From Emiliania huxleyi CCMP1516 (lineage: Eukaryota): a stretch of 64,000 nucleotides of DNA. Below, in pieces: positions 2,029 to 45,100 of the stretch. Each line of letters opens with the position of its first letter. Positions within the stretch are counted from its first letter, which is position 1. A program made the position numbers and the translations under genes. Location of the stretch: contig NW_005202427.1 in assembly GCF_000372725.1 (NCBI RefSeq), positions 496,001-560,000 on the forward strand, written 5' to 3'. The notes under the pieces were generated by a model. It worked only from the letters and a program-made list of their open reading frames with translations. It did not search any database and was not told the origin of the DNA.

Positions 2029-3948
2029 ATGGCCGCCCAGCGCCTGGAGTGCCCCGTCTGCCTGGAGGTGCAGGACGGGCGGCAGCACCAGTGCCGGGAG
2101 GGCCACGTCTTCTGCGCCTCCTGTGACTCCAGCCTGCGAGCCCCGCGCCTCTGCCCCGAGTGCCGCATGGCTCTCGGACCGCTGAGCCAGGCAATCCGAA
2201 ACAGAAGCCACGAGGAGCGGATCGCGGCGCTGCCGGCGGCGTGTTCGCACTGCGGGCTGGCGACGACGCGCGGCGAAGTCGCCGCCCACGAGCAAGGCTG
2301 CCCGCAGCGGCCGCGCACGTGTCCCGCGGCGGAGGCTGGCTGTGCGTGGTCGGGGCTGCTGGCAGACAAGGCGGCGCACGAGGCGACGTGCCCCTTCGCC
2401 GTGTGCCAGCGCATGATGGCGCCGCTGCGAGCCCAAGTGGCGGCGCAAGGTGCTGAGAACGAGCGGCTGCAAGCCCAGTTGGCGCCGCTGCAAGCCCAGT
2501 TGGCGCCGCTGCAAGCCCAGGTGGCGCCGCTGCAGGCCCAGGTGGCGCCGCTGCAGACCGAGGTGGCGGAACTGCGGGCGGAGAACTCCCTGCTGCGGTC
2601 GCGCGTGGCGGCGCTGGAGGCTGGCGAGGGCGGCGAGGAGGGAGGGCGGCGGGTGCGGCAGCGCGTTGGCGCCGCGCCGCATGACGCGCCTCCGAGCAAT
2701 GCGGAGGTGCGGGCGATGGACGTTGCGGCGGCGGCGGCGGTGCTGCGGGCGCACGTGTCGGTCAGCCGCGTTGCTGTTGCGGCGTGCGAGCGCTTGGCGG
2801 AACTGTGCATGGATGAACAGAACGATCATCTGGCGGCGGAGGCGGGCGCGATCGAGGCGGTTGCGGCGGCGATGCAGGCTTACCCGCAGGAGGCGGAGGT
2901 GCAGAGGCATGGCTGCACGACGCTGCGCATCGTGTGCTTCGGCAACGACGCCGCAGGGCTCGCACGCAAGCAGCGCGCAGCAGGCGCGGGCGCGATCGAG
3001 GCGGTGGCGGCGGCGATGCATGCTCACTTGCAGGTGGCGGGCGTGCAGGAGCATGGCTGCACGACGCTGACCAACGTGTGCTCCGGCGACGACGCCGCAG
3101 GGCGCGCACGCATGCAGCGCGTAGCCGACGCGGGCGCGATCGAGGCGGTGGCGGCGGCGATGCAGGCTCACTTGCAGGTGGCGGGCGTGCAGGAGCATGG
3201 CTGCGGGGCGCTGGGCATCGTTTGCTGCGGCACCGACGCCGCAGGGCTCGCACGCAAGCAGCGCGCAGCAGGCGCGGGCGCGATCGAGGCGGTTGCGGCG
3301 GCGATGCAGGCTCACCCGCAGGTGGCGAGGGTGCAACAGCAAGGCTGTTTGGCGCTGTGCATCGTTTGCTGCGGCACCGACGCCGCAGGGCTCGCACGCA
3401 GCCAGCGCGTAGCCGACGCGGGCGCGATCGAGGCAATAGTGGCTGCGATGCAGGCTCACTCGCTGGTGGCGGGCATGCAGGAGCAAGGCTGCGCGGCGCT
3501 GGCCAACGTGTGCTCTGGCACCGACGCCGCAGGGCGCGCACGCAAGCAGCGCGCAGCAGGCGCGGGCGCGATCGAGGCGGTTGCGGCGGCGCTGCAGGCT
3601 CACCCGCAGGTGGCGAGGGTGCAAGAGCAAGGCTGTTTGGCGCTGCGCATCGTGTGCTGCGGCACCGACGCCGCAGGGCTCGCACGCAGCCAGCGCGTAG
3701 CCGACGCGGGCGCGATCGAGGCAATAGTGGCGGCGATGCAGGCTCACTTGCTGGTGGCGGGCTTGCAGGAGCAAGGCTGCGCGGCGCTGGCCAACGTGTG
3801 CTCTGGCACCGACGCCGCAGGGCGCGCACGCAAGCAGCGCGCAGCAGGCGCGGGCGCGATCGAGGCGGTGGCGGCGGCGATGCAGGCGCACCCGCAGGTG
3901 GCGAGCGTGCAGGCGCAAGGACAGCGCTTGCGCGATCTGCTTGCCTGA
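2029..3948 (+). CDS. RING finger + Sina/TRAF-type zinc finger + coiled coil + armadillo-like repeat protein (putative E3 ligase), single exon
   Basis: 639 aa ORF. RING: CPVC...CREGHVFCASC...CPEC. Zinc fingers: CSHC...HEQGC and CPAAEAGC...HEATC. LQAQLAP heptads come from 21-bp repeats. About 8 tandem 48-aa (144 bp) ARM-like repeats (AGAIEAVAAAMQAHPQVAGVQEQGC.AL..VC). Confidence 0.88.
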   Translation: MAAQRLECPVCLEVQDGRQHQCREGHVFCASCDSSLRAPRLCPECRMALGPLSQAIRNRSHEERIAALPAACSHCGLATTRGEVAAHEQGCPQRPRTCPAAEAGCAWSGLLADKAAHEATCPFAVCQRMMAPLRAQVAAQGAENERLQAQLAPLQAQLAPLQAQVAPLQAQVAPLQTEVAELRAENSLLRSRVAALEAGEGGEEGGRRVRQRVGAAPHDAPPSNAEVRAMDVAAAAAVLRAHVSVSRVAVAACERLAELCMDEQNDHLAAEAGAIEAVAAAMQAYPQEAEVQRHGCTTLRIVCFGNDAAGLARKQRAAGAGAIEAVAAAMHAHLQVAGVQEHGCTTLTNVCSGDDAAGRARMQRVADAGAIEAVAAAMQAHLQVAGVQEHGCGALGIVCCGTDAAGLARKQRAAGAGAIEAVAAAMQAHPQVARVQQQGCLALCIVCCGTDAAGLARSQRVADAGAIEAIVAAMQAHSLVAGMQEQGCAALANVCSGTDAAGRARKQRAAGAGAIEAVAAALQAHPQVARVQEQGCLALRIVCCGTDAAGLARSQRVADAGAIEAIVAAMQAHLLVAGLQEQGCAALANVCSGTDAAGRARKQRAAGAGAIEAVAAAMQAHPQVASVQAQGQRLRDLLA

Positions 3949-6304: not shown

Positions 6305-9300
6305 ATGCGCCATTTCTTCGTCCTCGTAATCGCCGGGCTCGCCAACGGGATCGAGCCCTCATCGCGGGTCTCTCTCGCCGGCTCCGCATCCGGTTCGGAC
6401 GTGGTTCAGCAAGTCAACACCAGCGGCAGAGTCAGCAGTGGAGGCGGCGGCGGCGGCAGCGGCCGGCAGGCGGCCCGGCGGTCGCTTGAGGGCGCCAGCA
6501 CGAGCGGCACGATCATTGGGTGCACCAACCCGGTCCAGGTGCAGGGCGGGTGCGCCGCCTCGCTCGGCCTCCTCAAGGGCGACGGCCAGGAGGCCGGCTA
6601 CCTGCTCATCACGCCGCACACCTCCACCGACGTCTGGCTGGCCGACGCCTCCAGCGGCGACATCGTGCACAGCTGGAGCACGCCGTACGGCACCGGCCAC
6701 GCCGTCTACCTCGCGCCCGGCGGCGACATCGTGCGCCTCGAGAACAACTACTCTGCTGCCTACGACATCGGCATCGCCGGCGGCGCGTCGCATATCTCTG
6801 CGTACGACGCGGCGGGCGAGCTCCTCTTCACCACGGGCGTCAACCAGGCGACGCACCGCCTCCACCACCAGTTCGAGCTCTCGACCTTCGACGCGCGCGC
6901 CAAGACGGGCACCCTCTTCGCCCTCGCTGCGTACAAGCTCAGCTGCGAGGAGGCCAGAGGGCTCGGCCGCACCAGTTGCGAGGAGGAGGACGGCCTGTAC
7001 GTCGAGGCGGTGCTCGAGATCGACACGGAGGGCGACGTGGTGTGGGAGTGGTACATGAGCAACCACGTGTGCGACGGCTGCGACAACCTGACCAAGGTGC
7101 CGATCAACTCGGGCTCGGGGAAGCAGCAGGCCGACTGGGTGCACGCCAACTCGCTCGTGTACGACGCGGAGAAGGACGTGCTGCTCATGGGCGGCGCCTA
7201 CACCAACGAGGTGCCCGTCTCCCCCTCGAGTCATTCTCCCACAGACCGCCCTCGCCCCCCCCACCACCACCACCAGCCCCTCGAATCCTCCTGCCCCACC
7301 CGACCCCGCCTCTCCCGCCTCAGCAGCAGTACTCTCCCACCTTCAGGTGTACGTCATCAATCACACCTCGCCGAGCGAGACGCCGCTGATGGGCGACGGC
7401 GCGCCGGCCTCGCTCCTCTACCGCTTCGGCGCGGGCCGCTTCGGCGAGCAGCACGACGTGCGCGTGCTGCCGTGCGAGGACGGCCTCTGCTTCACGGTCT
7501 TCAACAACGGGCGGTACGAGAAGAATGGCTGTACGTTCGACGGGAACGGAGTGCAGTCGACGGAGTGCAGCAGCGAGGTGCTGCTCACGACGCTGCCCCT
7601 CGCGGTCCTCGACCCCAGCCAGGCGACGCCCCCCGCGACCGAGGTGGTGGTGCAGACGCTCTTCAACGCGAGCACGCTGCCGGACGGCCTGCTGGGCGAC
7701 GGCTCCGGCAAGTTCCTGCGGCTCACCGACGGCAGCGACGTGCGGGAGCTGGACCCCTTCTTCAGCCTCATCCTGGCGAGCGCGCAGCTGGTCGGGGAGC
7801 CCTTCACGAATGGGTCGTACCTCTCGGTGATGGTTGGCACGACCGGGACTCTGTTCGAGGCGTATTGGAACGCGTCTGGCCTCGGCGCCTACTCGGACGT
7901 GCGCCTCGTGTGGCAGGTGCCGGGGGAGAACCCGCTCGGCTCGGGCAAGCCGGGCCCGGGCAAGGCGCCGAGCGTCCTCAACTGCACGCTCCCCGGCCTC
8001 CAATTCCTGTCGGGCACGCCGAACGCGGGCTGGACGACGAGGGCGTTCAACGCGCAGCGGTACTCGCCCGACATCGTCGGCTGCCAGCCGCCTGTGTCGC
8101 CGCCGCCGTCGCGGCCCCCCTCCGCGTCGCCCTCGCCGACTCCGCCGTCGTCGCCCTCGCCGCCTTCTCCGCCGCCTGCCCCACCCGCTGCCCCACCCGC
8201 TGAACCCCCGCAATCACCGCCAGCCTCCGCCTCGCCCTCGCCACCACCGCCCTCTGCCTCGCCCTTGCCACCGCCGCCGCCATCCGCCCCCTCGTCTCCG
8301 CCGGCGCCGCCGTCGCCGCGGCCGCCGCCCCACCTGGTCTTTGTGCTGACGGACGACGTCGGCTTCAACGACTTTCACGACAGCTCCGACATTGGGGAGG
8401 CCTGGAACAACACGAGGGCGCTGCTCTCCGAGGCGATCCAGATCAACAGCACCTACACGGAGACCATCTCGATTCCTTCGCGCCGCTCCTTCCTCACGGG
8501 CCGCCAGGCGCGGCTGGTGACCCCCGGGAGGGAGGGGCAGGACTGGTCGAAGAACGAGACGACGATCGCGCACAAGCTGTTGGCGCAGGGGTACGTGACA
8601 TACGCGATCGGCAAGTGGTTCGCTGGCTACACGAGCTGGACGATCGCGCCAACCGGCCGCGGTTTTGCGCGCTTCTTCGGGCAGTACGAGAACATTTACA
8701 GCTACAATTCGCCGTGCACCAAACCCGCCAAGAACGACGACAAGCCGCGCTGGGACACCTTCTACTCGGAGGCGATGCCGTTTGAGACGCGCGACGCGAG
8801 CTTCGAGGCGCCGTTCTTGCGGTACGGGCTAGAGGCGATCGGGCCCGACGGCAACGGGCGGTACAAGACGGAGCTCTACGACGACAAGGCGACCGCGTTC
8901 ATCGAGCAGCACAAGCTGTACCACCCCGACAAGCCACTCTTCCTCTATTATGCACCCGTCCCGATTCGTGGCGCGGGCGGCGACAAGAGCGACCACCCGG
9001 ACGAGTACATGGACGCGCCGGCCTGCGCAGGGCTGGACAATGAGCGGCGCCGGAAAGCCTGCGCGGCCGCCGTCGCCCTCGACGAGTCGGTTGGCCACGT
9101 CGCATCGGCGCTCAACACCGGCGCGTACGCGAACGACGACCACGTCGTGGCGATGACCGCCGACAACGGCGCCGGCACGTGGAGGGTCTCGTCCGGCGGC
9201 AGCAACGCCCCCCTGCGCGGGAACAAGTACGAGGTCTTTGAGGGCGGCGTGCGCCTCAAGGCGCTCGTCTGGGGCCGGCATCCAGGCCTGGCAAGCAGCC

Positions 9301-12131
9301 CGCTGCTGGGGCAGACGTATACGGGCGGACGAGTGCAGCTCATCGACTGGCACGCGACCTTCGCCGCGCTCGGCGGGCACGTCGACATCAGCACGTCTGA
9401 GGAGGTGGTGAATGCCGGCCTCGACGTGTGGGCCGCGATCACGAACAACTCTGCGTCGCCGAGGACCGAGATGATTGTCGCTAAAGACTTCTACACCCGG
9501 CAAGCCGGCGTCGCCTTCTGGCAAGGGCCGTGGAAGCTGATGGTCGGCGTCGCGTACGGGCCCGACCCCAACTTGAATTGCGACGGGGGTGCTTACGGGC
9601 CGGCATGTGAGGTTCCTGGCGACAGCGTACTACAGCATTTGGGCCATTCGTTTCCAGTACGCTCGGGTGATAACGACGCCTATCTGCAGGTGCAGAGCTA
9701 CGATGTGTACGTCGGCCCAACGTGTAATTGCTTGGAGGGCTTCTTTCCGAAAGGTCCATTCGGTTCGGGCTACTCCCTCTACAACATCGACAACGACCCG
9801 GAAGAACAGGACAACCGGACGTCCGACTTCCCCGAGCTGGTGGCGAACCTCTCCAGCCGGCTCGACGTGCTCTGGGACTCGGGCGTCCGTTCGGCTCCCG
9901 ACCCAAACGACGATTGCGACGCCAGCCAAGCGGGAGTGGGGGTCACCGGTCGGCGGCTGGAGGAGACGTGCCCCGACTACCCTCAAGGCGTGGACACCTG
10001 CACCCTCCAGCTGCTCGGGGGAAGCTGCTCGGGGGACCCGCTCCTGCCGACCCGCTGCGTGCAAGAGGCCGGCTGGTGCACCTCCCCCGTCTGCGAGTCC
10101 GCCCCGAACGTGACGGTGTGGCCGTCGCTGCCGCCGCCGCCGCTTTCGCCGCCGTCGGACCCCCCCTCGCCGCCGCCGCCGTCCGCCCCGCCCTCGCCGC
10201 CGCCGCCGTCCGCCTCGCCCTCGCCGCCGCCGCTTTCACCGCCGTCGGTATCGCCGTCGCCTCCACCCCCGTCAGCCCCACCGCCCTCGCCGCCGCCTCC
10301 TTCCACCTCGCCCTCTCCGCCACCTCCCTCGCTTTCGCCCTCGCCGCCGCCACCGCCTCCGAGCGCATCACCGTCACCACCGCCGCCGAGCGCATCACCG
10401 TCACCACCGCCGCCGAGCGCATCACCGTCACCACCGCCGCCGAGCGCATCACCGTCACCGCCGCCGCCATCGCCGCCGCCACCGCCCGCGCCTCCGTCGC
10501 CGCCACCAGCAGCGCAGCTGCTCGACCTTCGCACGGCCACCACGTACCAGGACTCGAGCCTTTTCGACAAGCAGGCGCCCGTGAGCGACCTGTCATACGC
10601 CGACAGCACGACGGGACGGCCGTGGGCCGAGTGCGGCCAATACACAAGCCAATGGTGGGGCGTCGACCTCGGGAGCGAGGTGTATGTGCGCTACGTGCGG
10701 CTGCAGAACCGCAACGACTGCTGCGCGGAGCGGCTGACGGACGTCGACATCTATCTCGGCTCGACGGCGGAGACGTACACGGGCAACGCGCTGGTGAAGT
10801 CAGACGTGAGCGTGTCATCGAACGTCATGTTGGAGGTGGAGATCAACGCGTTGGGGCGCTACATCTACCTCAACCGGCCGTCTGCGGCGGGGCTGACGGT
10901 GTGCAAGTTCTACGTCTTCGCTTCGCCCGCGCCGCCGCCGTCACCATCACCGCCTCCCCCGCCGCCGTCGCCACCATCGCCGCCGTCGCCGCCGCCGCCT
11001 GACGTGCAGCTGCTCGACCTCAGCGCCGCCACCACGTACCAGGACTCGAGCTTGTTCGACAAGCAGGCGCCCGTGAGCGACCTGTCATACGCCGACAGCA
11101 CGACGGGACGGCCGTGGGCCGAGTGCGGCCACTACACAAGCCAATGGTGGGGCGTCGACCTCGGGAGCGAGGTGTATGTGCGCTACGTGCGGCTGCAGAA
11201 CCGCAACGACTGCTGCGCGGAGCGGCTGACGGACGTCGACATCTATCTCGGCTCGACGGCGGAGACGTACACGGGCAACGCGCTGGTGAAGTCGGACGTG
11301 AGCGTGTTGTCGAACGTGATGTTGGAGGTGGAGATCAACGCGTTGGGGCGCTACATCTACCTCAACCGGCCGTCTGCGGCGGGGCTGACGGTGTGCAAGT
11401 TCTACGTCTTCGCCTCAGCCGCACCGCCTGGGCCGCCGTCGCCGCCGCCACCGCCGCCTGCACCGTCACCGTCGCCGCCGTCGCCGCCGCCGCCTGAGGT
11501 GCAGCTGCTCGACCTCAGCGCCGCCACCACTTACCAGGACTCGAGCATCTACGACAAGCAGGCGCCCGTGAGCGACCTGTCATACGCCGACAGCACGACG
11601 GGACGGCCGTGGGCCGAGTGCGGCCACTACACACCCCAATGGTGGGGCGTCGACCTCGGGAGCGAGGTGTATGTGCGCTACGTGCGGCTGCAGAACCGCA
11701 ACGACTGCTGCCCACAGCGTCTGACCGGCATTGACATCTATCTCGGCACGACGGCAGAGACGTACACGGGCAACGCGCTGGTGAAGTCGGACGTGAGCGT
11801 GTCATCGAACGTGATGTTGGAGGTGGAGATCAACGCGTTGGGGCGCTACATCTACCTCAACCGGCCGTCTGCGGCGGGGCTGACGGTGTGCAAGTTCTAC
11901 GTCTTCGCAGGAAATCGCAATGGTCCACCTCCTTCCGCGTCGCCGTCGCCACCGCCGCCATCCACCCCGGGAGCTTCCTGCAAGGCGGGGCTCTGCACTG
12001 TCAACATCTTCGAGACGTGCTTCTACGACCCGGGCTGCGCGGCCGGGGGGCTGGGTTGCAACGCGGGCGGCAAGACACTCTGCCGCTTTTGCGAGTTTGG
12101 GCCCTACAAGGCGATCGAGTGCGCGCCCTGA
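6305..12131 (+). CDS. Secreted multidomain protein: arylsulfotransferase (ASST)-like, Pro-rich linker, sulfatase-like, Pro-rich linker, 3x F-type lectin (F5/8C/FTP), Cys-rich tail. Two exons (6305-7210, 7347-12131)
   Basis: Signal-like MRHFFVLVIAGLANG. ASST motifs HHQF, VVWEW, DWVHANSLVYD...NE|VYVINH and QHD are joined across a phase-0 GT-AG intron (7211-7346). Sulfatase motifs: LVFVLTDDVG, SIPSRRSFLTGR, ADNG, LRGNK..FEGGVR. Three near-identical domains contain WWGVDLG...NRNDCC.(E/Q)RL. Confidence 0.9.
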
Positions 12132-19255: not shown

Positions 19256-19592
19256 AAAGGCAGGGTGCGGGCGCGCGATTTCTTTTTTCAGAAACGGAGA
19301 GAGAGAGAGAGGAGAGATATTTTTAGCAATACCAAACTTTGTTGTGTTGTTTTGCAGAAACGGTTGATGGATGATGAAGGAAACAAATCACAAAACTATC
19401 TAACACGGACGGTTCAACGGGTCCCATGAGCACGAAAAGAGAGCACAAACAAACAAAAAGAGGGAACCCCGACGCAGAAGAAGAAAAACTCCTGGAGGCA
19501 GGGCAACCCAGAGAGGGTGTCCGAGTGACGGTGCTAGCTCAACTCCCCAAGAAGAAGACAAGAAGCGTCAAGATAAAAGAAACTCTGGCGTA

Positions 19593-22500
19593 ATGTCTTC
19601 ACGTAAACGCACAACCTCTTCACATAAACGCACCTGTGTCTTCACAGCAAGTAGCGACCCACAAATGCTGATGCCACCGCGTGGTTTGCCCCAGCCGCAG
19701 TTCATGTTCTGCACCTTCACGAGCATCCTCGCCGCGGCGACCACGCGCCAGAGCGTCTCAAGCCCAACAGTCCGCTTCGGCGGCCATCCTCCTCCCGGAT
19801 CTTGCATGCAAGCCGGCGGCGGGTGGCGAGCGAACGACGGAGTCGCGGACACTTGTCGAGTCCCAACCAAGGATTCTGTCAAGACCGAGGCCCCGCCGGA
19901 TGCGGCGTCCGCCCCTCTCACGACCCTTGAGGCGTCCATCGGCCTCCTTGCCCCGCTCGGCCCGCCAACGACCAAGCCGGCGGGCGGCGGGCGAGCGGCA
20001 GCGCCCCGGCACCTCCTCTTCCTCCAGAGCGACTGGGCCGTCGATGCGCGTCTGAAGGCCGCGCTGGGGGAGTTTGCGTGTCCTGCAGAGCTCCGCTCCA
20101 CCCGGATCTCCGACTCGAACGCGGTCGAGTCCGATCGCTTCTCCGTCTCAAGCGGCTACGCCGACCGGCAGCGCGCCTGCGCCTCCTTTGCCCGCGCCAA
20201 CTCCTCGCTGCTCGAGGACGAGCTGAATCGGGCGGATCAGGTATTGGCGACCCGCACTGCACTCCCCACGCCGCTGCATGGGCTGCCAAACACCGTCACC
20301 CCTCTGGCTATGCCCACCCGCGCGCTGCCCTGTCTGCCCACCCGCGCGCCGCCCTGTCTGCCTGTTTGCCCTGTCTGCCCTGCATGAACACTCGCTCCTT
20401 TGGCCGCTCCAGGTGCGCACCCGCCACCCCGCCACGGCGGGAGGTCACCTTGCGCTCGAGTCCGAGGAGCCACCAGGCTGCTTGGCCGCCTCTGGCAAGG
20501 CCCAGGCGTCGCTGCCCATCCCGGCCCAGTCTGGGTACACTCTCATCGCGGGCGCCGTCCGGATCGAACCGGACTCCGCCAGCCCTTCTCTTTTCTCTGG
20601 TCTCACGGTCGCTGCCGGGCAGCTGGTCGAGACGAGCCTCGTGCGGGCAGGAGCCTTTGTGCTACTCAGCAAATTCACTTCGCTCAAACCAGCCGCCGTG
20701 GCCACCGCCGCGCTGTGCTTCGGGAGGGCGGCCGCGTCTCCCACGGATCCACAAGGCGAGGTGCTGCTGCAGCCGTGTGGCTGCGAGGAGGATGGCGTAT
20801 TGTTCTGTACTTTTGACGCCGGCTTTTGCGAGCCTTGTATCAACCATGCCAACCGAGCCTCCTGCTACGACGATGGTCTCCCTGACACTGGTGCCCATGA
20901 TTGCGCTAAGCGCTGCTTTGATCTGCCGCCCGCACCGCCACCAACGCCGCCGTCGCCGCCGTCGCCGCCTTCACCGCCTCCTTTACCGCCGCTGCCGCCG
21001 CTGCCGCCGCTCTCCCCCGGCTTCGATGTCGCCGCGGCGAGCGAGGACAAGCTCCGCTCCCTGATCACGGAGGCTGCTGCCAACATCTCAATCTACCTGC
21101 CGCCCGGTGCGCACTTCAAGCTGTTCAGCCAGATCAGCTGCACCTCCACCATCAAGGTGACCGTCGCCAGCAGCGGCGAGGGCTCGACGCTCGACGGCCA
21201 GGGAGAGACCAGGCTCTTTTACCTCTCGGGCGGCTGCAGCCTCACCCTGCGGGGGCTGAACCTCGTCAACGGGAGAGGGGCGGCTGGGTGCGCCTGGGTC
21301 GATGATGAGTGTAAGAAGGAGGGGGAGGAGTACGAGGAGTACGAGGGCGAGGAGTACGAGTACGAGTACGAGTACGAGGGGGAGGAGGAGGAGTACGAGG
21401 GGGAGGAGGAGGAGTACGAGGGGGAGGAGTACGGCGGCGTTGTGCACGCGAACAACGCAGGCGACATCGAGATCATCGACTCGACTATGACAGGGTGCTC
21501 GGCTGAGGTGCGCCGCGTAGCCTAGCAGCCCCGCCCATGGCAGCGGTGTGAGAGAGATCCGGATTCTGCAGTTTAGAGACGAGTCCCACCATCCGCTGCC
21601 CTCTGTCCTCGCAACCGCAGTCTGGCGGCGTCGTCTTCGCGTATGAGAGCGGTGCGGTCTCGATCATCGGCTCGACCGTGACGAGCTGCTCTGCTAATGA
21701 GGTGCGCCGCGTAGAGCTAGCCGCCACCCCTGCAGCGCCGCACGGCAGCGGGGCGAGATATAGAGAGGGCCACGGCTGCCTCACCCCGGTCTCTCCTCGC
21801 AACCGCAGTACGGCGGCGTCGTCTACGCGGGTGGCAGCGGTGCGGTCTCGATAAGCGGCTCGACCGTGTCGGGCTGCTCTGCTGGCTATGTGCGCCGCGT
21901 AGAGCTAGCCGCCTCCAGCAGCGGCGCACGGCAGCGGGGCGAGATATAGAGAGGGCCACGGCTGCCTCACCCCGCTCTCTCCTCGCAACCGCAGAACGGC
22001 GGCGTCGTCTTGGCGGTTGAGAGCGGTGCGGTCTCGATAAACGGCTCCACCATGACGAGCTGCTCTGCTGAAGATGTGCGCAGCGTAGAGCTAGCCACAC
22101 CCCTGCAGCGCCGCACGGCAGCGGGGCGAGATATGGAGAGGGCCACGGCTGCCTCACCCCGCTCTCTCCTCGCAACCGCAGGACGGCGGCGTCGTCTACG
22201 CGGGTGGCAGCGGTGCGGTCTCGATAATCGGCTCGACCGTGTCGGGCTGCTCTGCTGGCTATGTGCGCCGCGTAGAGCTAGCCACACCCCTGCAGCGCCG
22301 CACGGCAGCGGGGCGAGAGATAGAGATGGCCACGGCTGCCTCACCCCGGTCTCTCCTCGCAACCGCAGGAGGAGGGCGGCGTCGTCGCCGCGGAGGACAG
22401 CGGTGCGGTCTCGATAATCGGCTCCACCGTGTCGGGCTGCTCTGCTAGAGTGCGCCGCGTAGAGCTAGCCACACCCCTGCAGCGCCGCACGGCAGCGGGG

Positions 22501-25500
22501 CGAGAGATAGAGATGGCCACGGCTGCCTCACCCCGCTCCCTCCTCGCAACCGCAGTACGGTGGAGCTATAGCCACGTTTAATCGCGTCCTGATCGTGACC
22601 GACTCCACCGTCGCCGGCTGCAATGCCACGCGAGGCGGAGCCGTGTACGTGGGGTCGGGCTCAGCCAGCCTAGCCCGCTCCGCCATCTCCAACTGCATCG
22701 CCTCAGAGGCTGGCGGCGGCCTCTACTCGGCGGGCGGGCGCACCTCCCTGAGCGACGGCACCCTCATCAGCGGCTGCACCGCCCCGGAGGGTCAGGGGAG
22801 CTCCATCTTCCTGCTCGCTGGCGAGGTCTCCTACGCCCTCCCCGCCCCCGCCGGCCGCTGGCTGCCAAACGCGCGCTGCGAGGTGTACCGGGAGGCGTGC
22901 TCATACGATCCGTACCCGTACACCGAGAGGGCTAAGCAAGCAGCTTGCCTTGAGCACCGCGACGATTGCGCGGGCAGGCAAGACCCGACCCCACCCGAGT
23001 GGTATTGCCAGGCCCCAACCTTCGTGCAGCCGTGCAACTGGAACAACGAGACCGGCGACCACTCCCTCCTTGGCGAGAACCTCTACCAGCTGCCGCTTCT
23101 CCCCGTCGAGCTGGACTTTCCCTTCGCCTGCGCCGCCGGCCTCCTCGGATCGGCCGACCCCGAGTACCAGTCGAGCAGCAGCTGCGCCGGCCGCTGCCCC
23201 GCACGCTCCCAATGCCCCACAGAGGCGACCTATGAGCCCCCGCCCTGCGATACTGGCCACTACTGCCCGGAGGGGACGAGCGTGCCCCTTCCCTGCCCCG
23301 CCGGGTCGTACTCGACCGCCACCAACCTCTCCGACGCGAGCGAGTGCACGGCCTGCCCCGCCGGCAGCGCCTGCTCAACGGGCAGCGTCGATCCGACGCC
23401 GTGCTCGCCTGGCACCTTCGCCGCGAAAGAGGGCCAGCCTAACTGCACGCCGTGCCCTCCCGGCACGTCGTCGGATCAAGGCAGCGACGCGTGCGACGCG
23501 TGCGAGGCTGGCCGCTACGCCGCCAACGCTGGCCAGGGCCTGTGCGTCCCGTGTCCTCACCCCCTCAGCTCGGTCAGTGGCAGCGTCACCTGCTCGTTTT
23601 GCATGGACGGCTACTACTTGCGTAACACCTCGGCCGACGCGGACGACATCTTCACCTCTCCGACCGAGTACTGCAAGCCTTGCGCGCCAAACGCTGTCTG
23701 CCCGGACAACACTACCCTTTCATCCCTCGTCCTCCCGCGCGGCTTCTGGCGCGCCAGCCCCTCCTCCGCCGTGCTGACAGAGTGCCGCCTCTTTGGCGGC
23801 AATGACAACGCCGGCAAGACGCGATGCGCCGGCAGCGAGTCGAGAGGCGCCTCTCGCCGCCGGAGGATGGCGGAGGCGGGCTCGGAGTACTGCGCTTCGG
23901 ACTTCAAAGGCCCCGAGTGCCAGCTCTGCGCCGCGGAGAATCACTACCTCGTCGACGGCGACGAGTGCAAAGAGTGCGCAGCGCGCGGCGCCGCTGCGGG
24001 TCGCATCATCGGCCTCGTCCTCGGCCTCTGCGTCGCGTGCGGCTTGGCGGCGTGGGCCTACCACATGCCGCGGCGGAAGGAGCCCTACATCGGCTGTATC
24101 CTCCGCTTTGCAGACCGCGTCGTCAAGTACTACGTCGTGGGCGGAATGACAGCCAAGGTCAAGATCCTGTTTGGCTTCTACCAGATCAGCACCGTCTTGT
24201 CCTCCACCTACTCGGCGCGGTTGCCGCGAGAGTACACGCGCTGGACGGACAAGCTGGCCAGCGCCGTCTCCATCGACTGGTCAGGCCTTCTCCTGCCGGA
24301 GCAGTGCCTTGGCTACGGCCTGAGGCTCCTCGTCATTGCTCTCTCCCCCGTCGCCCTCATCGCGCTGCTAATGGCAGCGGGAATAAGTCAGCGGCTCCTG
24401 CACCGCTGGCGTGCTGCCCCGGCGCCGCGCGAGAGATCGTGGTACGCGGAGGCGGCCCTCGGCCTCCTGGACCTCACGCCGGCCGGCCTCGTGCTAGTCT
24501 TCTGCTTCGTGCCCTCCATCAGCGCCTCCATCTTCCGCGCGTGGTCGTGTCAGGCGCCTCCAGCTGATGACTGCCATTGCTCACAACCCCACCTCTCAGT
24601 CCTCGCAATGTTCTGCTGATAGGCCTACACCGTCTCCCCGCCCGACGAGTCGCCGCGGCAGGTCTCCTACATGCGGCAGGACGCGAGCGTCGAGTGTGGC
24701 ACCGGCGAGCACGAGTCCATCACCGATCTCGCCACCGGCTTCATCGTCCTCTGGCCCGCCGGCTCGCTGGTCCTCTTCACGTCGCTCCTCGCCGCTTGCT
24801 ACAAGCCGCTGCAGGCCAAGACGCCGAATGCTCTGACGCGGGCCACCGCCTTCCTCCACCGGGAGTACGAGAAGACCTGGTACTGGTGGGAGGCGGTCGA
24901 GCTGGCGCGCAAGCTCGTGCTCACGGGCTTTGTGCTGCTGATAACGGAGGAGCGCGCCTTTGTTCGCCTTGTGGTGGCGACCCTCATCTGCTCCTGCTAC
25001 GCCGTCGCACTCGCCGTCGTGCGGCCGTACAAGCGGGTCGAGGACAACGTGCTCGCCGTCGCCACCAGTCTCGTGCTCCTCCTTCTCTTCCTCGGCACCA
25101 ACTGGAGCACCATCTTCCTCGGCATCAAAGAACGCTCCGGGGTCGATGATGCCAACGCAGTCCTTGGCTTCCGCAGCCTCAATGGGGTAGTCAACTCGAT
25201 GATCGTCCTCGTCGCAGTCGTGCTCGCCTTCTTCCTCGTGGGCGCCATCGTTGCCGCCCGCCGCGTCGCCAAGATCCCCACGATCCGACTCGTCTCGACC
25301 AAGCAGCCCCCAGAGCTGAACATCGTGCTCGGCCTCACGTGGCACCTCTTCAACAGCCACATCTGGTGAGTCACAGCTATGGAGGGAGAAGAGGAACAGG
25401 AACGCTATAGAGTCACCACACACCTCCGAATAGGTCGACCGGTCAGGACGCCGTCGCCGTCATCAAGGGTGAGCTCCAGCAGCTGCTGCCGGGCATCAAG

Positions 25501-26859
25501 ATCTTCCTCGACGCACGCAGATGCTCAGCACCGCGTCGGAGCTACACACACACATCCACTCTGACGCACCGCGGTGTGCGCGCAGGTAGATGATCTCAAA
25601 GACATTGGGGCGCTGGAGGAGTACATCCAGCGCTCGCAAGTCATCCTCTTCTTCCTCTCGAAGGGCTACTTCCGCTCCAAGGCGCGCCTGTCCCTCCCAC
25701 CCCGACTCCAGACCGCACTCTGGCCTTACCTCCCGCCTCTCCCGCGCCACAGAACTGCCTCCGCGAGATCCGCTCGTCGCTCGAGAAGGACAAGCCGCTG
25801 GTCCTCGTCCAAGAAGCGGACCCTGACAAGGGCGGCGGGACGCTGCAGGCGCTGCGCGCAGAGTGCCCCGAGGAGCTGCAGCCGGCCATCTTTGACAACG
25901 ACTGGCCGCTCACGATCTGGTATCGCATCGATGAGTTTCAGCTCATCTCGCTCAAGATCATCGCCGAGGCGCCGCCGGCCACAGCCAGCCGCTACGCAGT
26001 CCTCTCTGTCTCCCGACCGACCCCACTTGAACCACAGGCGCTGCTCCTCTGCTCGCCCAACTATCTGAACCAGACCTCCCTCCCGCTCTGCGTGTCGGGC
26101 GAGCCCGAGAGCCAGTCGCTCGCCTTTTCCAAACGGGTCACGGTCTGGGCCTCGCCGGCCAACGCGGGCGCACTGGACTTGGCCAACGAGATCGCCGCCG
26201 CCTTCACCGGCCTCACGATCTCCACCACCGACGATCGGCCGGCCACCGCGACCCACATGCTGCTCTACCTCAACGAGGACAGCTTCGTCAGCGACGAGCG
26301 GCTGGCCGAGCAGGTCAAGCAGGCGCGCCAGGACAGGCTGAAGATCGTCACGGCGCACGAGAACGACCCCGCGCTCGGCGGCTGCCAGTTCTCCAAGTTT
26401 TTTGAAACCACGCCGCAGGAGCGATAGTCTCGGCTTTCCCGAGCCTCCCCCCCCCCCCACACACACACACAACCCTCTCCTTCCAACGCCGCAGGAGCTC
26501 ATCGCCGGCGGACTCTACAAGGACCTGGCAAAGTCGTGCTTCCCCGGGCGCCACCGCAAGGCGCGCTCTGTTTCCCACAGCTCGCTTTGCACGCATCGAG
26601 CCTCGCGACGAAGGCCTCTCCCTCTCCTCAGGTGTCGCTCGTGCTTCTGGCAAAGAGCCTCGGCGCGACCGCCGCTCGGTCGCGGGCGGACCTCCTCGTT
26701 TCGGGCAGCATCGCCGAGGGCAGCACCAGCCTCGCGAGGCGCGGCTTTGACGGCCTCAGCCGGGTGTTCGCCAAGATGAGCAGCCGCAGCTCTGCGGAGG
26801 CGCGCGACGTCTCTGGAGGCGAGGCGTCGTCATCGGCGTCGGTGCAGCAACAGGTATGA
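19593..26859 (+). CDS. Large receptor-like protein: Pro-rich stalk, GGxV beta-helix (polymorphic-membrane-protein-like) repeats, Cys-rich EGF/ephrin-receptor-like repeats, multi-TM region, cytoplasmic TIR domain and a second TIR-like region; about 15 exons
   Basis: Exons read in frame: 19593-20240, 20413-21507, 21621-21701, 21809-21889, 21995-22075, 22182-22262, 22369-22449, 22556-24553, 24623-25365, 25434-25512, 25586-25681, 25753-25968, 26038-26418, 26495-26560, 26632-26859. TIR: HLFNSHIW|STGQD...IFLD|VDDL...ILFFLSKGYFRSK|NCLREI. TM region: KILFGFYQI, FLHREY...WWEAVELARKL. The start codon is uncertain. Confidence 0.85.
21508..22555 (+). repeat. Tandem array of ~187 bp intron+exon units (6 introns, 5 exons of 81 bp)
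   Basis: Each intron begins GTGCGC(C/A)GCGTAG and ends CCTCGCAACCGCAG. Each exon encodes xGGVVxAxxSGAVSIxGSTxxxCSAxx. Confidence 0.95.
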
Positions 26860-27348: not shown

Positions 27349-29830
<2,482 letters not shown>

Positions 29831-38938: not shown

Positions 38939-41142
38939 GGTGGCAGTCCGGGTTCTGTGAAGAGGGTCGCTCGTCGAATGCGAGCCAGTTCGCTCGCGAC
39001 GCCGACGCCGACGCCGCCGCCGGAACGACCGCGGCGGCCGGTCGAGCGGCCGCCCCGGCCAGCGGCCGTATCGAGCCTGCCCGTCGCGAAGGTGCGGACC
39101 TCACGCGCCCCACCGGCCGCCCGCGCCGCCGCGCCCACGTCGCTCTCTCGAAGCCCAGCGCCACGCCGCTACGACTCCCATCGCGACGACTCCCGTGCTC
39201 GCTCGTGGCGCAGGCGATCGACTCCTGACACCCATCGAGCGGATGGGCGCGTTCCCGCCGCGATCCGGTACTCTCGAACGACTTTTGAGGGCAAAAGGTG
39301 CCGCCCGAGCCCATTCCCGCCGCCCGCCGCCCGAGATCAGCTGCCACCGGCCAGCGCGCGCGCGGAGACCTGCCGCGAGCGCCTCCGTGGCCCTAGCTGG
39401 GGTGATTAGCAAGCGCCTCGGCACTTTAGATTCGCCCCTCGGGCTTTTCCGCGCGCGTGATCAGTCTCGCGTTCTCTCCTTTTTCAGGCGCCTGTTTTCG
39501 GCCTCTGAAGAGCAACCGTCGAGGCGTCGATGCTCGCCTCCACGCCCGCGCCAGACCTCCGCGATTGGGGCGCCTTGTCGACGGGATCAATTGTGATTCC
39601 GGGCGTATTTTTCTGGTATCTTACTCGCACGTCGGCGACTCTTAGTCGCTTCTCCGTGCTAGGAGGCCTCTGTTTTGTGTCCGTGAGGACTAGATCGAAA
39701 CTAACATTTCGGCATATGCGAGTAAAGTATCAGAAAAATGCGCGTTCGTTCACAATTCATGTGTATATGAACGGTGCCGACGGGTTTGGCGAGCAGCGAA
39801 GCCGTCCAGGCGCAGCAACGCGACGGTTTCGGAGGTCGACGGCTCCGAAAGAGCCTCCCGTTCGAGGCCGGCGCGGTCACGGTACCGTGGAGGCCACAGA
39901 CGTCGCCGGAGCGGCACTCCCGGGGCGCCACTCCCTCACCCGGTCAGGGGGGGCCAACCACAGCCCGCCTCACCGTCCGTGGAGCTTCCGTGGTCCGCCG
40001 CTTCGGCTTCGATTTTCGACCCTCCCGAGGCTGCTAGAGCAGCCCCGCGGAGCCTCCCGGATGCACCGGCACACCGTCGTCCAGAACGCCGGCGCACGCG
40101 CTGCCCAGTGACCGGGCGGGTCGGCCCCGACTAGGAGCGGGCCCAGCCGGGCGGAGAAGACTATCCCACTCGCGGTGCGTCGCACCGGCCGGTCCGGTTT
40201 TCGTCTCGAGCGGGTCGTGAGACGGCCGCGAGAGCGAGCACCGCGGTCACAGTGCCGTGGAGGCCACAGACGTCGCCGGAGCGGCACTCCCGGGGCGCCA
40301 CTCCCTCACCCGGTCAGGGGGGGCCAACCACAGCCCGCCTCACCGTCCGTGGAGCTTCCGTGGTCCACCGCTTCGGCTTCGATTTTCGACCCTCCCGAGG
40401 CTGCTAGAGCAGCCCCGCGGAGCCTCCCGGATGCATCGGCACACCGTCGTCCAGGATGACGGCGCATGCGCTGCCCAGTGACTGGGCGGGTCGGCCCCGA
40501 CTAGGGGCGGGCCCAGCCGCGCGGAGAAGGTCAGCGAGCTCGAAACACGTCGCCGCGGCCGGCCGTTTCGCAAGCCTGAGCGGGTCGCCAGACACCCGCG
40601 AGAGCCAGCAGCTAGAGCGCCGTCGTAGCCGCAGATCGAGTCGAGGAGCTTAATGTCCACGGTAGCAGTTGTGGAGAGCGGTGGCGCGGTGCGTGTAGAG
40701 GCGTCGACTGAGGGCTCCCTTTCGAAACGCGACGGGTACGGCATGACAACTGCCAGTACAGTTTTACGCCGGCCAGCGTGAGAGCACAACAGGGAGCCGG
40801 CGACCCGTACGCTTTGCGCGTGGCGACTGGTGGCTGTCTGGAGCTCGTGTGAGCTGGGCCGACGCGTGGCCGAGCCGAGAGGACCAGCGAGCGACCACCT
40901 TGGCGATGAAGCTTGGCGGCCGGCGCCTCGTCGCCAGACGTCACAGCGGCGTGGACGCAGGAGTGTGCGGCGACGAGTACCGGCAAATCCGGCCCGGCGT
41001 GGCCGGCAGCTGCCTAGCGCTGGCCTGTGACCGGCGCTGCGGTGGCGGAGAAGGCGTCTCTCCGCCGTGGCGGCGGTCGGCAGGTGCGAGCGTGATGCCA
41101 TCGTGTGGGACGACACCCGTCTGCAAAACCCGGACTGCCACC
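38939..41142. mobile_element. Non-autonomous DNA transposon with 16-bp perfect TIRs and TTAA TSD (Kolobok-like termini)
   Basis: TTAA|GGTGGCAGTCCGGGTT at 38935-38954 and AACCCGGACTGCCACC|TTAA at 41127-41146. No transposase ORF recognised. Confidence 0.8.
39872..40529. repeat. Internal direct repeat (~290 bp x2, period 370) inside the TTAA element
   Basis: CCGTGGAGGCCACAGACGTCGCCGGAGC...GCGGAGAAG at ~39885-40159 and ~40255-40529, nearly identical. Confidence 0.92.
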
Positions 41143-43290: not shown

Positions 43291-43620
43291 AGGCTTGCAT
43301 AGAGACACTCGTCTCACGAAGCTGTCTTGCACACACGTACTGTCTCGCAACAGTGTTGCCCTGCCTTAGCTCACTCACGTACATACATACACGTGGCAGC
43401 GCTCGGCGGCAGTACTGGTTTGATATAGCACGGAGTCCTCTCGCTCCAGTGCAGTACGGAGTTTGTCGTATCGCGTTTCACAGTGATGCCCCAAAGTCTG
43501 AGACAGCAATACGAGCACATGGGCTACTCTAGTTTTCCAATTCACTCTCACACTCTGACATGCTAATATTTGTGTGCACAAATCGCCCGTCGTCACCGCC
43601 TTTCACCACCAGGTCCCCCA

Positions 43621-45100
43621 ATGTTTGTGCATGTCATGACGTCCTCCGCCGTGCCCGGCCGTGCCCGGGCCCCCAGCCTAGACAGCGGCTGCCCGGCCGC
43701 CCTGCCTAGCGCGTGGGCGGTGCTGGGTATGGTTGAGCCGTCGGCGAGCCTCGCCTGCCCGCCCTCCATGCCGTCGCTGCCACCGCCGTCGCCTCCTCCA
43801 CTGCCTTTACCGTCACCGCCGCCGCCGCCACCGCCGCCACCGCCGCCATTCTTACCGTCGCCGCCGCCTTCGCTCTCGCCTTCCCCGTCGCCACCGCCGC
43901 CAGTCCCGTTGCACCCTCCGCTGCAAACAACTCCGCCATGCTTTGGTTGCCTCCACCCGCACACCGCCGGCGGCTTGCCCGAATTCCCGAACGATTGGGC
44001 CATCGGGCTGCTCCTCGCATTGTGCCTTGAGCCGCTGCTGCGTGGGCAGATCAAGAAGAAGAGGGTGGAGGGCCGCAGCCACGCAGCGATCTCTGTACCC
44101 TTCCTCTCCGGCACGCGTGCTCTCCGAGTTGGCATTGTGATCCTCTTCTGCCTGCAGGACGTATGCGGCACCCCACCGGCACCGCTCCAGCCCGTCATTG
44201 TCAGCGGCCCGTGCTCGCTCACCGACGGCGGCTCGTGCGCCGCGTCGCCAAACTACCCGAACAGCTACGGCATCAACGAGGCGTGCACCATCAGCGGCGT
44301 GCCGCCGGTCGAGCTGGAGACGGTCGCCTTTGATGTGGACGCTTGGTCCTACTACGACTACGACTACAACGGTGACCCCATGGATGACTGCCCCTCCGAC
44401 TATCTCACCGTCAACGGCAAGAAGTACTGCGGCACCTCGGGGCCCCCGAGTGGCGCGGTGGCGGAGGACGGCGTGATCGAGTGGCGATCGGATGGCAGCG
44501 TAGTCGGGCCGGGCTGGAAGGCGCGCCCCTGGTCCCTCTCGCTCCCTTCTTTCTCCTCTCTGATGCCCTCCTCCCTCTCTGCCGTCAGATCTGCTGGGCG
44601 ACCCGCCCGCCTTCACCGCCATCAGCGCCGCCTCCACCGCCTCCACCGCCTCCACCGCCAACACCGCCGTCGCTGCCGCCGCTCTCCCCCGGCTTCGACC
44701 ACGGACACGCCGGAGCGGGCAACCCACATGCTGCTCTACCTGACCCAGAACACTTGGTCGGATGAGAGGCTGGCCGAGCAGGTCACGGCGGCCCGCGCAG
44801 CAGGTCTGCCGATTGTCATGGCTCACGAGAACGACCCAAGCCTTGGTGGTTGCGCTTTTGCACGCCAATTTGAGACCACGCCGCAGGAGCTCATCGCAGG
44901 CGGCCTCTACCAAGACCTCGCCGTCGCGTGCTTTGCGGGGATTCACCGCGAGGCAGCCGAGACGTAGCTGAGAGTTTAGCTGGTACCTACCCTTTGTGAG
45001 GCCGCCGGTTCGGACTAGGTGTCGCGCTGTCTACTGGCAAAGGCGCTCGGTGCTAGGCCAGGCAGGGAGCAGGAGGCGTCCCTCCGCCGCAGCAGCCTTT
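43621..45100 (+). pseudogene. Internally deleted, frameshifted paralog of the TIR receptor, with a CUB-like ectodomain
   Basis: CUB-like SPNYPNSY...C...FDV...DYLTVNGKKYCGTSGP...WRSDGS...GWK|ICW, then a Pro stalk ending PPLSPGFD (as in 19593-26859). This joins out of frame to THMLLYL...DERLAEQV...AHENDPSLGGC.F...FETTPQELIAGGLYQDLA. Confidence 0.75.

What the first reader, a model, noticed from the sequence alone, without database searches (positions are those of the whole stretch)
21508..22555. TIR-domain receptor with a cassette of interchangeable 81-bp exons between near-identical introns: candidate diversifying immune receptor in an alga
Seen: five exons of exactly 81 bp (27 aa), all phase 0. 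They encode SGGVVFAYESGAVSIIGSTVTSCSANE, YGGVVYAGGSGAVSISGSTVSGCSAGY, NGGVVLAVESGAVSINGSTMTSCSAED, DGGVVYAGGSGAVSIIGSTVSGCSAGY and EEGGVVAAEDSGAVSIIGSTVSGCSAR. The separating introns (105-113 bp) are mostly nearly identical and look as conserved as the exons or more so. Exon differences cluster at fixed positions: the first residue, the residues after GGVV, and the last two. Known: one-repeat-per-exon arrays with homogeneous introns underlie exon shuffling in Ectocarpus ROCO/LRR genes, and GGxV repeats form beta-helix rungs. Inference: each exon is one rung that can be skipped, duplicated or swapped via the identical introns without frameshift, generating variable ligand surfaces coupled to a TIR output.
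Basis: partly seen in the sequence, partly recalled or inferred. Interest (0 to 1): 0.88.

Follow-up and report, generated by a model that had tools for sequence, protein, structure and literature searches.

The report
Shuffled beta-helix exons in algal receptors
In a marine alga, likely a coccolithophore, a family of predicted surface receptors builds its sensing domain from small exons, each predicted to form one coil, separated by copies of one intron shared across many genes, and the fast-changing residues likely line a binding groove, so the alga likely reshuffles these coils to recognise changing targets such as viruses.

Summary
In detail: five 81-nt phase-0 exons lie between six related introns. 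Five introns are 93-98% identical and the first is 69-72%. The gene models as a beta-helix / Cys-rich stalk / multi-pass membrane / TIR receptor, likely of Emiliania/Gephyrocapsa. The same intron-plus-exon unit occurs in 17 other distinct loci; complete arrays hold 1 to 8 exons. Introns are as alike between genes as within them (0.82 vs 0.82). In 30 of 31 cases they are 81-95% identical to the window's, against 50-72% for ordinary introns of two of these genes. A model of an intron-free relative gives one helix turn per repeat. Best reading: heritable duplication and exchange of rungs plus diversifying selection on a binding groove. Exon skipping, strain polymorphism, somatic change, ligand and immune role are not shown. 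Rungs also duplicate without introns. Relatives with the same TIR type respond to virus in published data, not all upward. Verdict: a new variant of brown-algal-style exon-shuffled receptors.

The parts
20414..21507 (+). Exon (5' end not resolved): N-terminal region, Pro-rich linker, beta-helix cap, Glu/Tyr-rich insertion, first (cap-type) rung
   Evidence: Open frame 20227-21507; cap matches 11 paralog loci and residues of P0149 modelled as cap helix plus strands. Start codon and upstream exons not determined.
21276..21429 (+). In-frame Glu/Tyr-rich insertion of about 51 codons just before the first rung; absent from paralogs
   Evidence: translation; an RNA contig skips 21275-21433; paralogs have a linker of a few residues here.
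21508..21620 (+). Family intron 1 (diverged copy)
21621..21701 (+). Rung exon 1 (81 nt, phase 0)
21702..21808 (+). Family intron 2
21809..21889 (+). Rung exon 2
   Evidence: an RNA contig joint leaves at 21889, the predicted donor
21890..21994 (+). Family intron 3; groups with introns of 7 other loci rather than with its neighbours
   Evidence: support 91/92, not starred
21995..22075 (+). Rung exon 3
22076..22181 (+). Family intron 4
22182..22262 (+). Rung exon 4 (98% identical to exon 2)
22263..22368 (+). Family intron 5
22369..22449 (+). Rung exon 5
22450..22555 (+). Family intron 6
22556..24553 (+). Large exon: three terminal rungs, Cys-rich stalk (PF07699), first membrane helices
   Evidence: PF07699 E 4e-8, above cut-off; hydropathy
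24623..25365 (+). Exon: remaining membrane helices and start of the TIR domain; preceded by a 69-nt GC-AG intron
   Evidence: weak PF06011 hit, E 0.047
25434..25968 (+). TIR domain in three exons (25434-25512, 25586-25681, 25753-25968); putative catalytic Glu in the NCLRE motif
   Evidence: BLASTP of the model's C-terminal part to PF13676-bearing relatives, E 1e-72 to 4e-50 for four of them; joints across the GC-AG introns in RNA contigs
26038..26859 (+). Second, degenerate TIR-like domain and tail in three exons (26038-26418, 26495-26560, 26632-26859 with stop)
   Evidence: Conserved in relatives; TIR likeness judged by eye only; joint 26558-26630 in RNA contigs

Best explanation
This array encodes the variable part of a predicted cell-surface receptor: each exon is predicted to form one turn of a beta-helix, the same intron separates such exons in many paralogs, and the turns are likely duplicated, lost and exchanged by homologous recombination within and between genes, while selection likely diversifies a groove that likely binds non-self ligands and would signal through the TIR domain. 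Shown: exon and intron anatomy, sharing of the intron by 17 other loci, variable repeat number, conserved phase, excess amino-acid change at seven codons. Predicted from a relative: one turn per repeat. Inferred: the variable codons (6, 8, 9 on PB1/T1; 26, 27, 1 in T3) face the concave groove. Inferred: the intron supplies about 106 nt of homology exactly between the hypervariable codons 27 and 1, so crossovers reassort whole turns without frameshift. Inferred: change is heritable (evolutionary or clonal) rather than programmed. Inferred, weakest: the ligand is a glycan or protein of a virus or microbe, and the TIR acts as an NAD-consuming signal enzyme.
For: Family: 20 loci from one exact 25-nt intron-exon pattern, 17 distinct, none an allele of the window. 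Phase: 37 of 38 script-called exons are phase 0 at both ends, with boundaries searched in any phase; the exception is a mis-call in a cap exon. Complete arrays hold 1, 1, 2, 3, 4, 5, 5 and 8 exons. Homogenisation: 48 introns, identity 0.816 within and 0.817 between loci, permutation p 0.53. 30 of 31 full-length paralog introns are 81-95% identical to the window's, while 4 of 4 comparable ordinary introns are 50-72% and downstream four-fold sites 39-76% in 11 loci (random 41%). Patchwork: window exons split 1+3 versus 2+4 while the adjoining introns split 4+5 or 1+2; L017 has a fused double rung and a displaced cap-type piece. Selection: pN/pS 1.97, locus bootstrap 1.59-2.64; omega 4.7, 2dL 27.9; other outward positions 0.93; inward 0.44. 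Fold: P0149 pLDDT above 90 over residues 21-260, four strands per 27 residues; VIA Z 25.6, rmsd 3.3, 269 aligned to RbtA, and Z 20-23 to polysaccharide lyases and tailspikes. Function lead: Table S9 of PMC12489294 lists TIR genes of this type that rise in infection or resistance.
Against: A PHI-type test on 36 introns finds no recombination signal (p 0.39, 0.83), and the intron tree is mostly unresolved (1 of 33 branches starred). Intron ends are more conserved (0.93-0.94) than the middle (0.80), so splice-signal selection explains part of the similarity. The cap exon is also fairly homogeneous (four-fold identity 0.71-0.90), so the exchanged unit may be the whole module. Only four ordinary introns from two loci could be compared. 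Rungs duplicate without introns in P0124 and P0131. Recombination inflates tree-based omega. The one published transcript with the same cap by eye (cogent9830_i1) is significantly down in recovered cells and not significantly up in infection. No allele of this locus was compared.
Confidence: 0.58

Rival explanations
1. Same exon exchange and selection, but the receptors serve non-immune recognition: mate or self recognition, prey or partner sensing, or sensing of the cell's own polysaccharide coat.
For: Closest folds bind or cut polysaccharides. The cap-bearing transcript cogent9830_i1 is not virus-induced. The membrane module belongs to a very large family (943 clusters at E<=1e-10), which suggests varied roles.
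Against: TIR domain with the putative catalytic Glu; three transcripts with this TIR type rise in infection or resistance; strong diversifying selection fits conflict.
Confidence: 0.17
2. A single recent burst of tandem and gene duplication spread one intron-bearing beta-helix module; introns look alike because they are young and constrained for splicing, with no continuing exchange.
For: No PHI signal and star-like intron tree; conserved intron ends; many copies are decaying toward about 70 nt; cap also similar.
Against: Even a single burst needs the module to be grafted onto genes whose C-terminal parts are 33-45% identical to the window protein. Exon and intron splits disagree inside the window array. 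Intron middles (0.80) stay above neutral sites downstream.
Confidence: 0.13
3. Diversity is made mainly at the RNA level by combinatorial skipping of rung exons, as in Dscam or as proposed for brown algal ROCO genes.
For: All exons are symmetric phase 0. RNA contigs show joints between non-adjacent rung positions. One paralog exon carries a stop that skipping would bypass.
Against: The joints carry letters that differ from the window, so they come from other copies and do not show skipping. Exon skipping was rare in E. huxleyi: 8 cases in an inspection of 535 introns (PMC4028052, passage). Near-identical splice sites offer little basis for regulated choice (inference).
Confidence: 0.07
4. The intron is a mobile element (introner-like) that inserted repeatedly at rung junctions; the array is a by-product.
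For: Near-identical introns in many genes, longer than the gene's other introns (105-113 vs 68-76 nt); intron-free relatives exist.
Against: No copy elsewhere in the 64-kb window. In the fetched loci the clear copies sit only at rung boundaries. No unusual fold: z between -2.05 and 0.19 for the six copies. My metagenome pattern required the rung exon, so copies in unrelated genes could not be seen.
Confidence: 0.04
5. The array or the intron sharing is an assembly artefact.
For: Metagenome contigs can be chimeric at repeats; no reads of the source genome were examined.
Against: Copies differ from each other. Two pairs of loci recur at 99.7-99.96% in separate assemblies. An annotated E. huxleyi protein also holds two such rungs (P0148).
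Confidence: 0.01

Closest known systems
Brown algal ROCO (LRR) and NB-ARC-TPR candidate immune receptors with exon shuffling (PMC3341825, PMC11378527)
   Same: One structural repeat per exon in symmetric phase, variable repeat number among paralogs, intra- and intergenic rearrangement, positive selection on one face.
   Different: Beta-helix instead of LRR/TPR; predicted extracellular sensor on a multi-pass membrane protein with TIR output instead of ROC-COR or NB-ARC; unicellular haptophyte; one short near-identical intron shared across paralogs, which the passages read do not describe; no inverted exons seen.
TIR-domain genes of Gephyrocapsa huxleyi that respond to EhV infection (PMC12489294)
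   Same: By eye, four of the Table S9 rows I saw carry the same TIR type or flanking modules; cogent2074_i1 matches the window TIR at 49 of 82 positions.
   Different: The main text has 0 occurrences of 'beta-helix' or 'exon' and treats cogent2074_i1 as cytoplasmic. None of these rows is this gene.
Right-handed parallel beta-helix proteins (RbtA, PL6 alginate lyases, GH28, phage tailspikes)
   Same: Same fold for the intron-free relative P0149 (VIA Z 20-25.6); groove formed by PB1 with T1 and T3 loops (PMC8952511, passages).
   Different: Only 6-16% identity; no conserved catalytic residues in the groove, which is instead hypervariable.
Toll-like receptors and lamprey variable lymphocyte receptors (recalled; VLRs also as described in PMC3341825)
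   Same: Repeat-built ectodomain coupled to TIR (TLR); repeat cassettes exchanged via short homologies (VLR).
   Different: No LRR, several membrane helices; no evidence of programmed somatic assembly.

Membership tests
Brown algal ROCO / NB-ARC-TPR exon-shuffled receptors | One repeat per exon, symmetric phase | tested here: met
Brown algal ROCO / NB-ARC-TPR exon-shuffled receptors | Variable repeat number and rearrangement among paralogs | tested here: met
   Complete arrays with 1-8 exons; fused and displaced rungs
Brown algal ROCO / NB-ARC-TPR exon-shuffled receptors | Positive selection on a subset of repeat positions | tested here: met
   the face itself is inferred from secondary structure and fold geometry
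Brown algal ROCO / NB-ARC-TPR exon-shuffled receptors | LRR plus ROC-COR, or NB-ARC plus TPR domains | tested here: not met
   No such Pfam family in the exons or relatives; not a member, works like it
Brown algal ROCO / NB-ARC-TPR exon-shuffled receptors | Inactive or inverted repeat exons as reservoir | tested here: inconclusive
   No minus-strand copy in the window; one stop-bearing exon (L020) and one out-of-frame piece (L017); no genome held
Brown algal ROCO / NB-ARC-TPR exon-shuffled receptors | Alternative splicing of repeat exons | tested here: inconclusive
   RNA contig joints cannot be assigned to this gene; raw-read runs did not hold it
Right-handed parallel beta-helix | Coil of three or four parallel strands per turn with cap | tested here: met
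   For the relative P0149: (PF13229 E 1.5e-4, below cut-off). The window's spliced protein itself was not folded.
TIR_2 (PF13676) domains | Profile match | tested here: inconclusive
   Relatives hit PF13676 at E 6.8e-6 to 0.065, all just below or under the cut-off; the window's single TIR exons give no hit; spliced model matches these relatives strongly
TIR_2 (PF13676) domains | Catalytic glutamate in the alpha-C helix | tested here: met
   Glu of the NCLRE motif aligned in 6 of 7 rows, Asp in one; its identity as the catalytic residue rests on recalled TIR motifs
TIR_2 (PF13676) domains | NAD hydrolysis or signal production | not testable with these tools
   Needs an assay
Toll-like receptors | LRR ectodomain and single membrane helix (recalled) | tested here: not met
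   Seven hydropathy peaks above 1.7; no LRR hit
Introner elements | Near-identical introns at many unrelated gene positions (recalled) | tested here: inconclusive
   None outside the array in the window; collection search required rung context; no genome
G-protein-coupled receptors | Seven-helix GPCR family match | tested here: inconclusive
   No GPCR membrane-domain family; weak PF06011 TRP hits only; membrane part not folded separately

The most novel reading that the evidence does not exclude
The shared intron is a dedicated recombination hub: during clonal growth, rung exons are swapped among dozens of receptor genes fast enough to give cell-to-cell variation in a beta-helix binding groove, so a bloom carries a repertoire of TIR-coupled virus sensors on which viral lysis selects. 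This would be an anticipatory, VLR-like receptor system in a single-celled alga, on a scaffold not known for this use.
Probability: 0.12. Interest if true: 0.96.

Novelty: new variant of a known kind. Interest (0 to 1): 0.8.

Why it matters
How bloom-forming algae recognise their giant viruses is open. PMC12489294 reports TIR genes responding to infection but names no variable recognition domain. This family supplies a concrete candidate: a modular groove with measurable diversifying selection, a likely route for reassorting it, and a TIR output. It also extends one-repeat-per-exon receptor diversification from brown algae to a second algal lineage and a third repeat scaffold. Because the introns are short and the host-virus pair is culturable, the long-standing question of somatic versus heritable shuffling in algae becomes testable by amplicon long reads. 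Such genes are poorly served by current annotation: the one named E. huxleyi model found lacks large parts (P0148).

Tried and rejected
No whole genome is held, so family size and intron distribution per genome are unknown. Strain-level comparison of this locus was not obtained; allelic variation of the array stays open. The two raw-read RNA runs (X14, X15) matched essentially only the low-complexity Glu-rich stretch. Intron motif searches of viral contigs and prokaryote genomes gave 0 hits. Intron folding is not unusual. PHI-type test negative. The first IQ-TREE fixed-omega runs were faulty and were redone. The Glu/Tyr stretch was considered as an intron and rejected by eye: no phase-compatible acceptor and no pyrimidine tract. 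Nine of ten members of the cluster of an intron-free relative (P0047; one fragment left out) show no change in rung number and few substitutions in the helix (output partly cut), so hypervariability is not general in the wider family. Earlier scan findings: none by sequence, words or place. Literature searches that found no description of this array; the library lacks most subscription papers. Papers seen: PMC12489294 abstract, passages, sections 17 and 20, rows of supplement 1 with cells cut; PMC3341825 passages and section 27; PMC11378527, PMC8952511, PMC4028052 and bioRxiv 10.64898/2026.10.11.758280 passages only; the rest as search listings. Unseen supplement cells may hold rung sequences.
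Full report
Observation. The array is as described. Six GT-AG introns and five 81-nt exons lie at 21508-22555, all phase 0 and in frame with the flanking exons. Introns 2-6 are 93-98% identical, intron 1 is 69-72%, and exons average 83%. The acceptor motif occurs six times exactly and only here; 0.51 matches are expected by chance.

The gene. Joining 14 exons by coordinates gives one open frame of 1768 codons from 20414 to a stop at 26859; the 5' end is unresolved. Order: N-terminal region, Pro-rich linker, cap, an acidic Glu/Tyr insertion, nine rungs (one in the cap exon, five in the array, three in the next exon), a Cys-rich stalk (PF07699, E 4e-8), seven clear hydropathy peaks, a TIR domain and a second TIR-like domain (judged by eye). 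The seven other introns are 68-76 nt with five GC, one GT and one GA donor. GC and GA donors are typical of E. huxleyi (PMC4028052, passages). The nearest named relative is EMIHUDRAFT_220686 at 72% over 37% of the query, so the organism is inferred to be Emiliania/Gephyrocapsa. The model's C-terminal part matches relatives bearing PF13676 and keeps the putative catalytic Glu.

Expression. Two marine metatranscriptome assemblies cover 29 and 28 of 30 bins, include pieces with 0-1 differences from this gene, and show joints across four of the downstream introns and at rung boundaries (15 joints shown, 27 not shown). The rung joints carry letters unlike the window's, so they come from other copies. 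They fit the predicted splice points but do not show skipping, and an intron-free junction in DNA cannot be excluded. Two raw-read runs held nothing relevant.

The family. An exact intron-exon pattern found 20 metagenome loci, 17 distinct after removing three duplicates. Flank identities of 66-87% show paralogs, not alleles. 37 of 38 script-called exons are phase 0 at both ends, with lengths from 78 to 165 nt; the exception is a mis-call, and one L017 donor was corrected by eye. Eight complete arrays including the window hold 1, 1, 2, 3, 4, 5, 5 and 8 exons. Upstream domains differ among paralogs, and two classes of downstream exon follow the array. L017 has a fused double rung and an out-of-frame cap-type piece; L020 has a stop in one exon.

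Are the introns too alike? Among 48 introns, identity is 0.816 within and 0.817 between loci (p 0.53). Of 31 full-length paralog introns, 30 are 81-95% identical to the window's. The four ordinary introns that could be compared are 50-72%, and four-fold sites of the downstream exon are 39-76% in 11 loci against a random 41%. Loci whose C-terminal parts are only 33-45% identical in protein still carry introns mostly 81-92% identical. Inside the window, exons group 1+3 and 2+4 while adjoining introns group 4+5 or 1+2, and intron 3 groups with eight introns of seven other loci (91/92). Against: the PHI-type test is negative, the tree is poorly resolved, intron ends (0.93-0.94) exceed the middle (0.80), and the cap is also homogeneous (0.71-0.90). 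Exchange is therefore inferred from relative divergence and patchwork, not from a recombination statistic.

Selection. pN is 0.56 and pS 0.29, ratio 1.97 with locus bootstrap 1.59-2.64; the other 20 codons have pN 0.15. Codon models give omega 4.7 (2dL 27.9), 7.5 for inner codons 6, 8, 9 and 5.6 for edge codons; other outward positions give 0.93 and inward ones 0.44. Recombination can inflate these; the pairwise ratio does not use a tree.

Structure. The intron-free relative P0149 was folded with a 24-row alignment. Residues 21-260 have pLDDT above 90 and each 27-residue repeat forms one turn with strands at positions 5-8, 12-16, 19-21 and 24-25. Best matches are RbtA (Z 25.6) and polysaccharide lyases, glycosidases and tailspikes. 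In this fold PB1 with T1 and T3 forms the binding groove (PMC8952511). The exon boundary falls in T3.

Limits on the intron's role. P0125, P0142 and P0149 have contiguous rungs, and P0124 and P0131 show near-identical rung duplications without introns. The introns therefore likely promote, but are not needed for, repeat turnover. An intron-free relative shows a stable helix across nine close members.

Function. In PMC12489294 Table S9, cogent2074_i1, one of two core resistance TIR genes, matches the window TIR at 49 of 82 positions by eye; it is up 8.7 log2 in recovered cells. cogent2584_i1 and 373cFLNC_128518286, with the same membrane-TIR layout by eye, fall in the infection-induced cluster. 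cogent9830_i1, which has the same cap by eye, is down 3.0 log2 in recovered cells and not significantly up earlier. None is this gene. Among the 150 best relatives of the membrane exon, 76 hit a TIR profile built from my model and five relatives, and 12 of 50 long ones have both rung motifs and TIR. An immune role is likely but untested.

Comparison and verdict. It works like the brown algal ROCO and NB-ARC-TPR arrays (PMC3341825, PMC11378527) but is not a member: different scaffold, topology and output, plus a short intron shared across paralogs that those passages do not describe. Eight literature searches found no description of it. Verdict: real, a new variant of a known kind, interest 0.8. 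Strain variation, skipping, somatic change and ligand remain open.

Noticed in passing
window 43600-45100 (+): A broken member of the same family: CUB-like domain and Pro-rich linker jump directly, with a frameshift, into the second TIR-like domain; cap, rungs, stalk, membrane part and first TIR are missing. Deletion derivative or misassembly.
   Followed up: partly
window 21276-21429: Locus-specific Glu/Tyr-rich in-frame insertion built from short repeats, at the loop position that is hypervariable in the rungs.
   Followed up: partly
PMC12489294 Table S9, cogent2074_i1: This core resistance TIR transcript begins just upstream of the TIR and aligns to residues 391-878 of its top model hit, so it may be a 5'-truncated membrane receptor rather than a cytoplasmic protein.
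   Followed up: partly
window 19404-20387 (+): Open frame upstream of the modelled gene, partly covered by RNA contigs; may hold the true start.
   Followed up: no
window 7092-12131 (+): Long frame with a sulfatase-like region and three 492-bp tandem modules separated by Pro-rich linkers; labels by eye.
   Followed up: no
window 2842-3920 (+) and 54308-55222 (+): Coding tandem arrays of 144 bp (armadillo-like, after a RING-like start) and 156 bp (RCC1-like); labels by eye.
   Followed up: no
window 29171-29400: Interstitial telomere-like hexamer repeats inside an ankyrin-like gene region.
   Followed up: no
window 39872-40610: Two 370-bp tandem copies, 89% alike, not obviously coding.
   Followed up: no
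L006, L012, L014, L016, L017, L019: Decayed family introns shrink to 67-81 nt, near the size of the gene's ordinary introns.
   Followed up: partly
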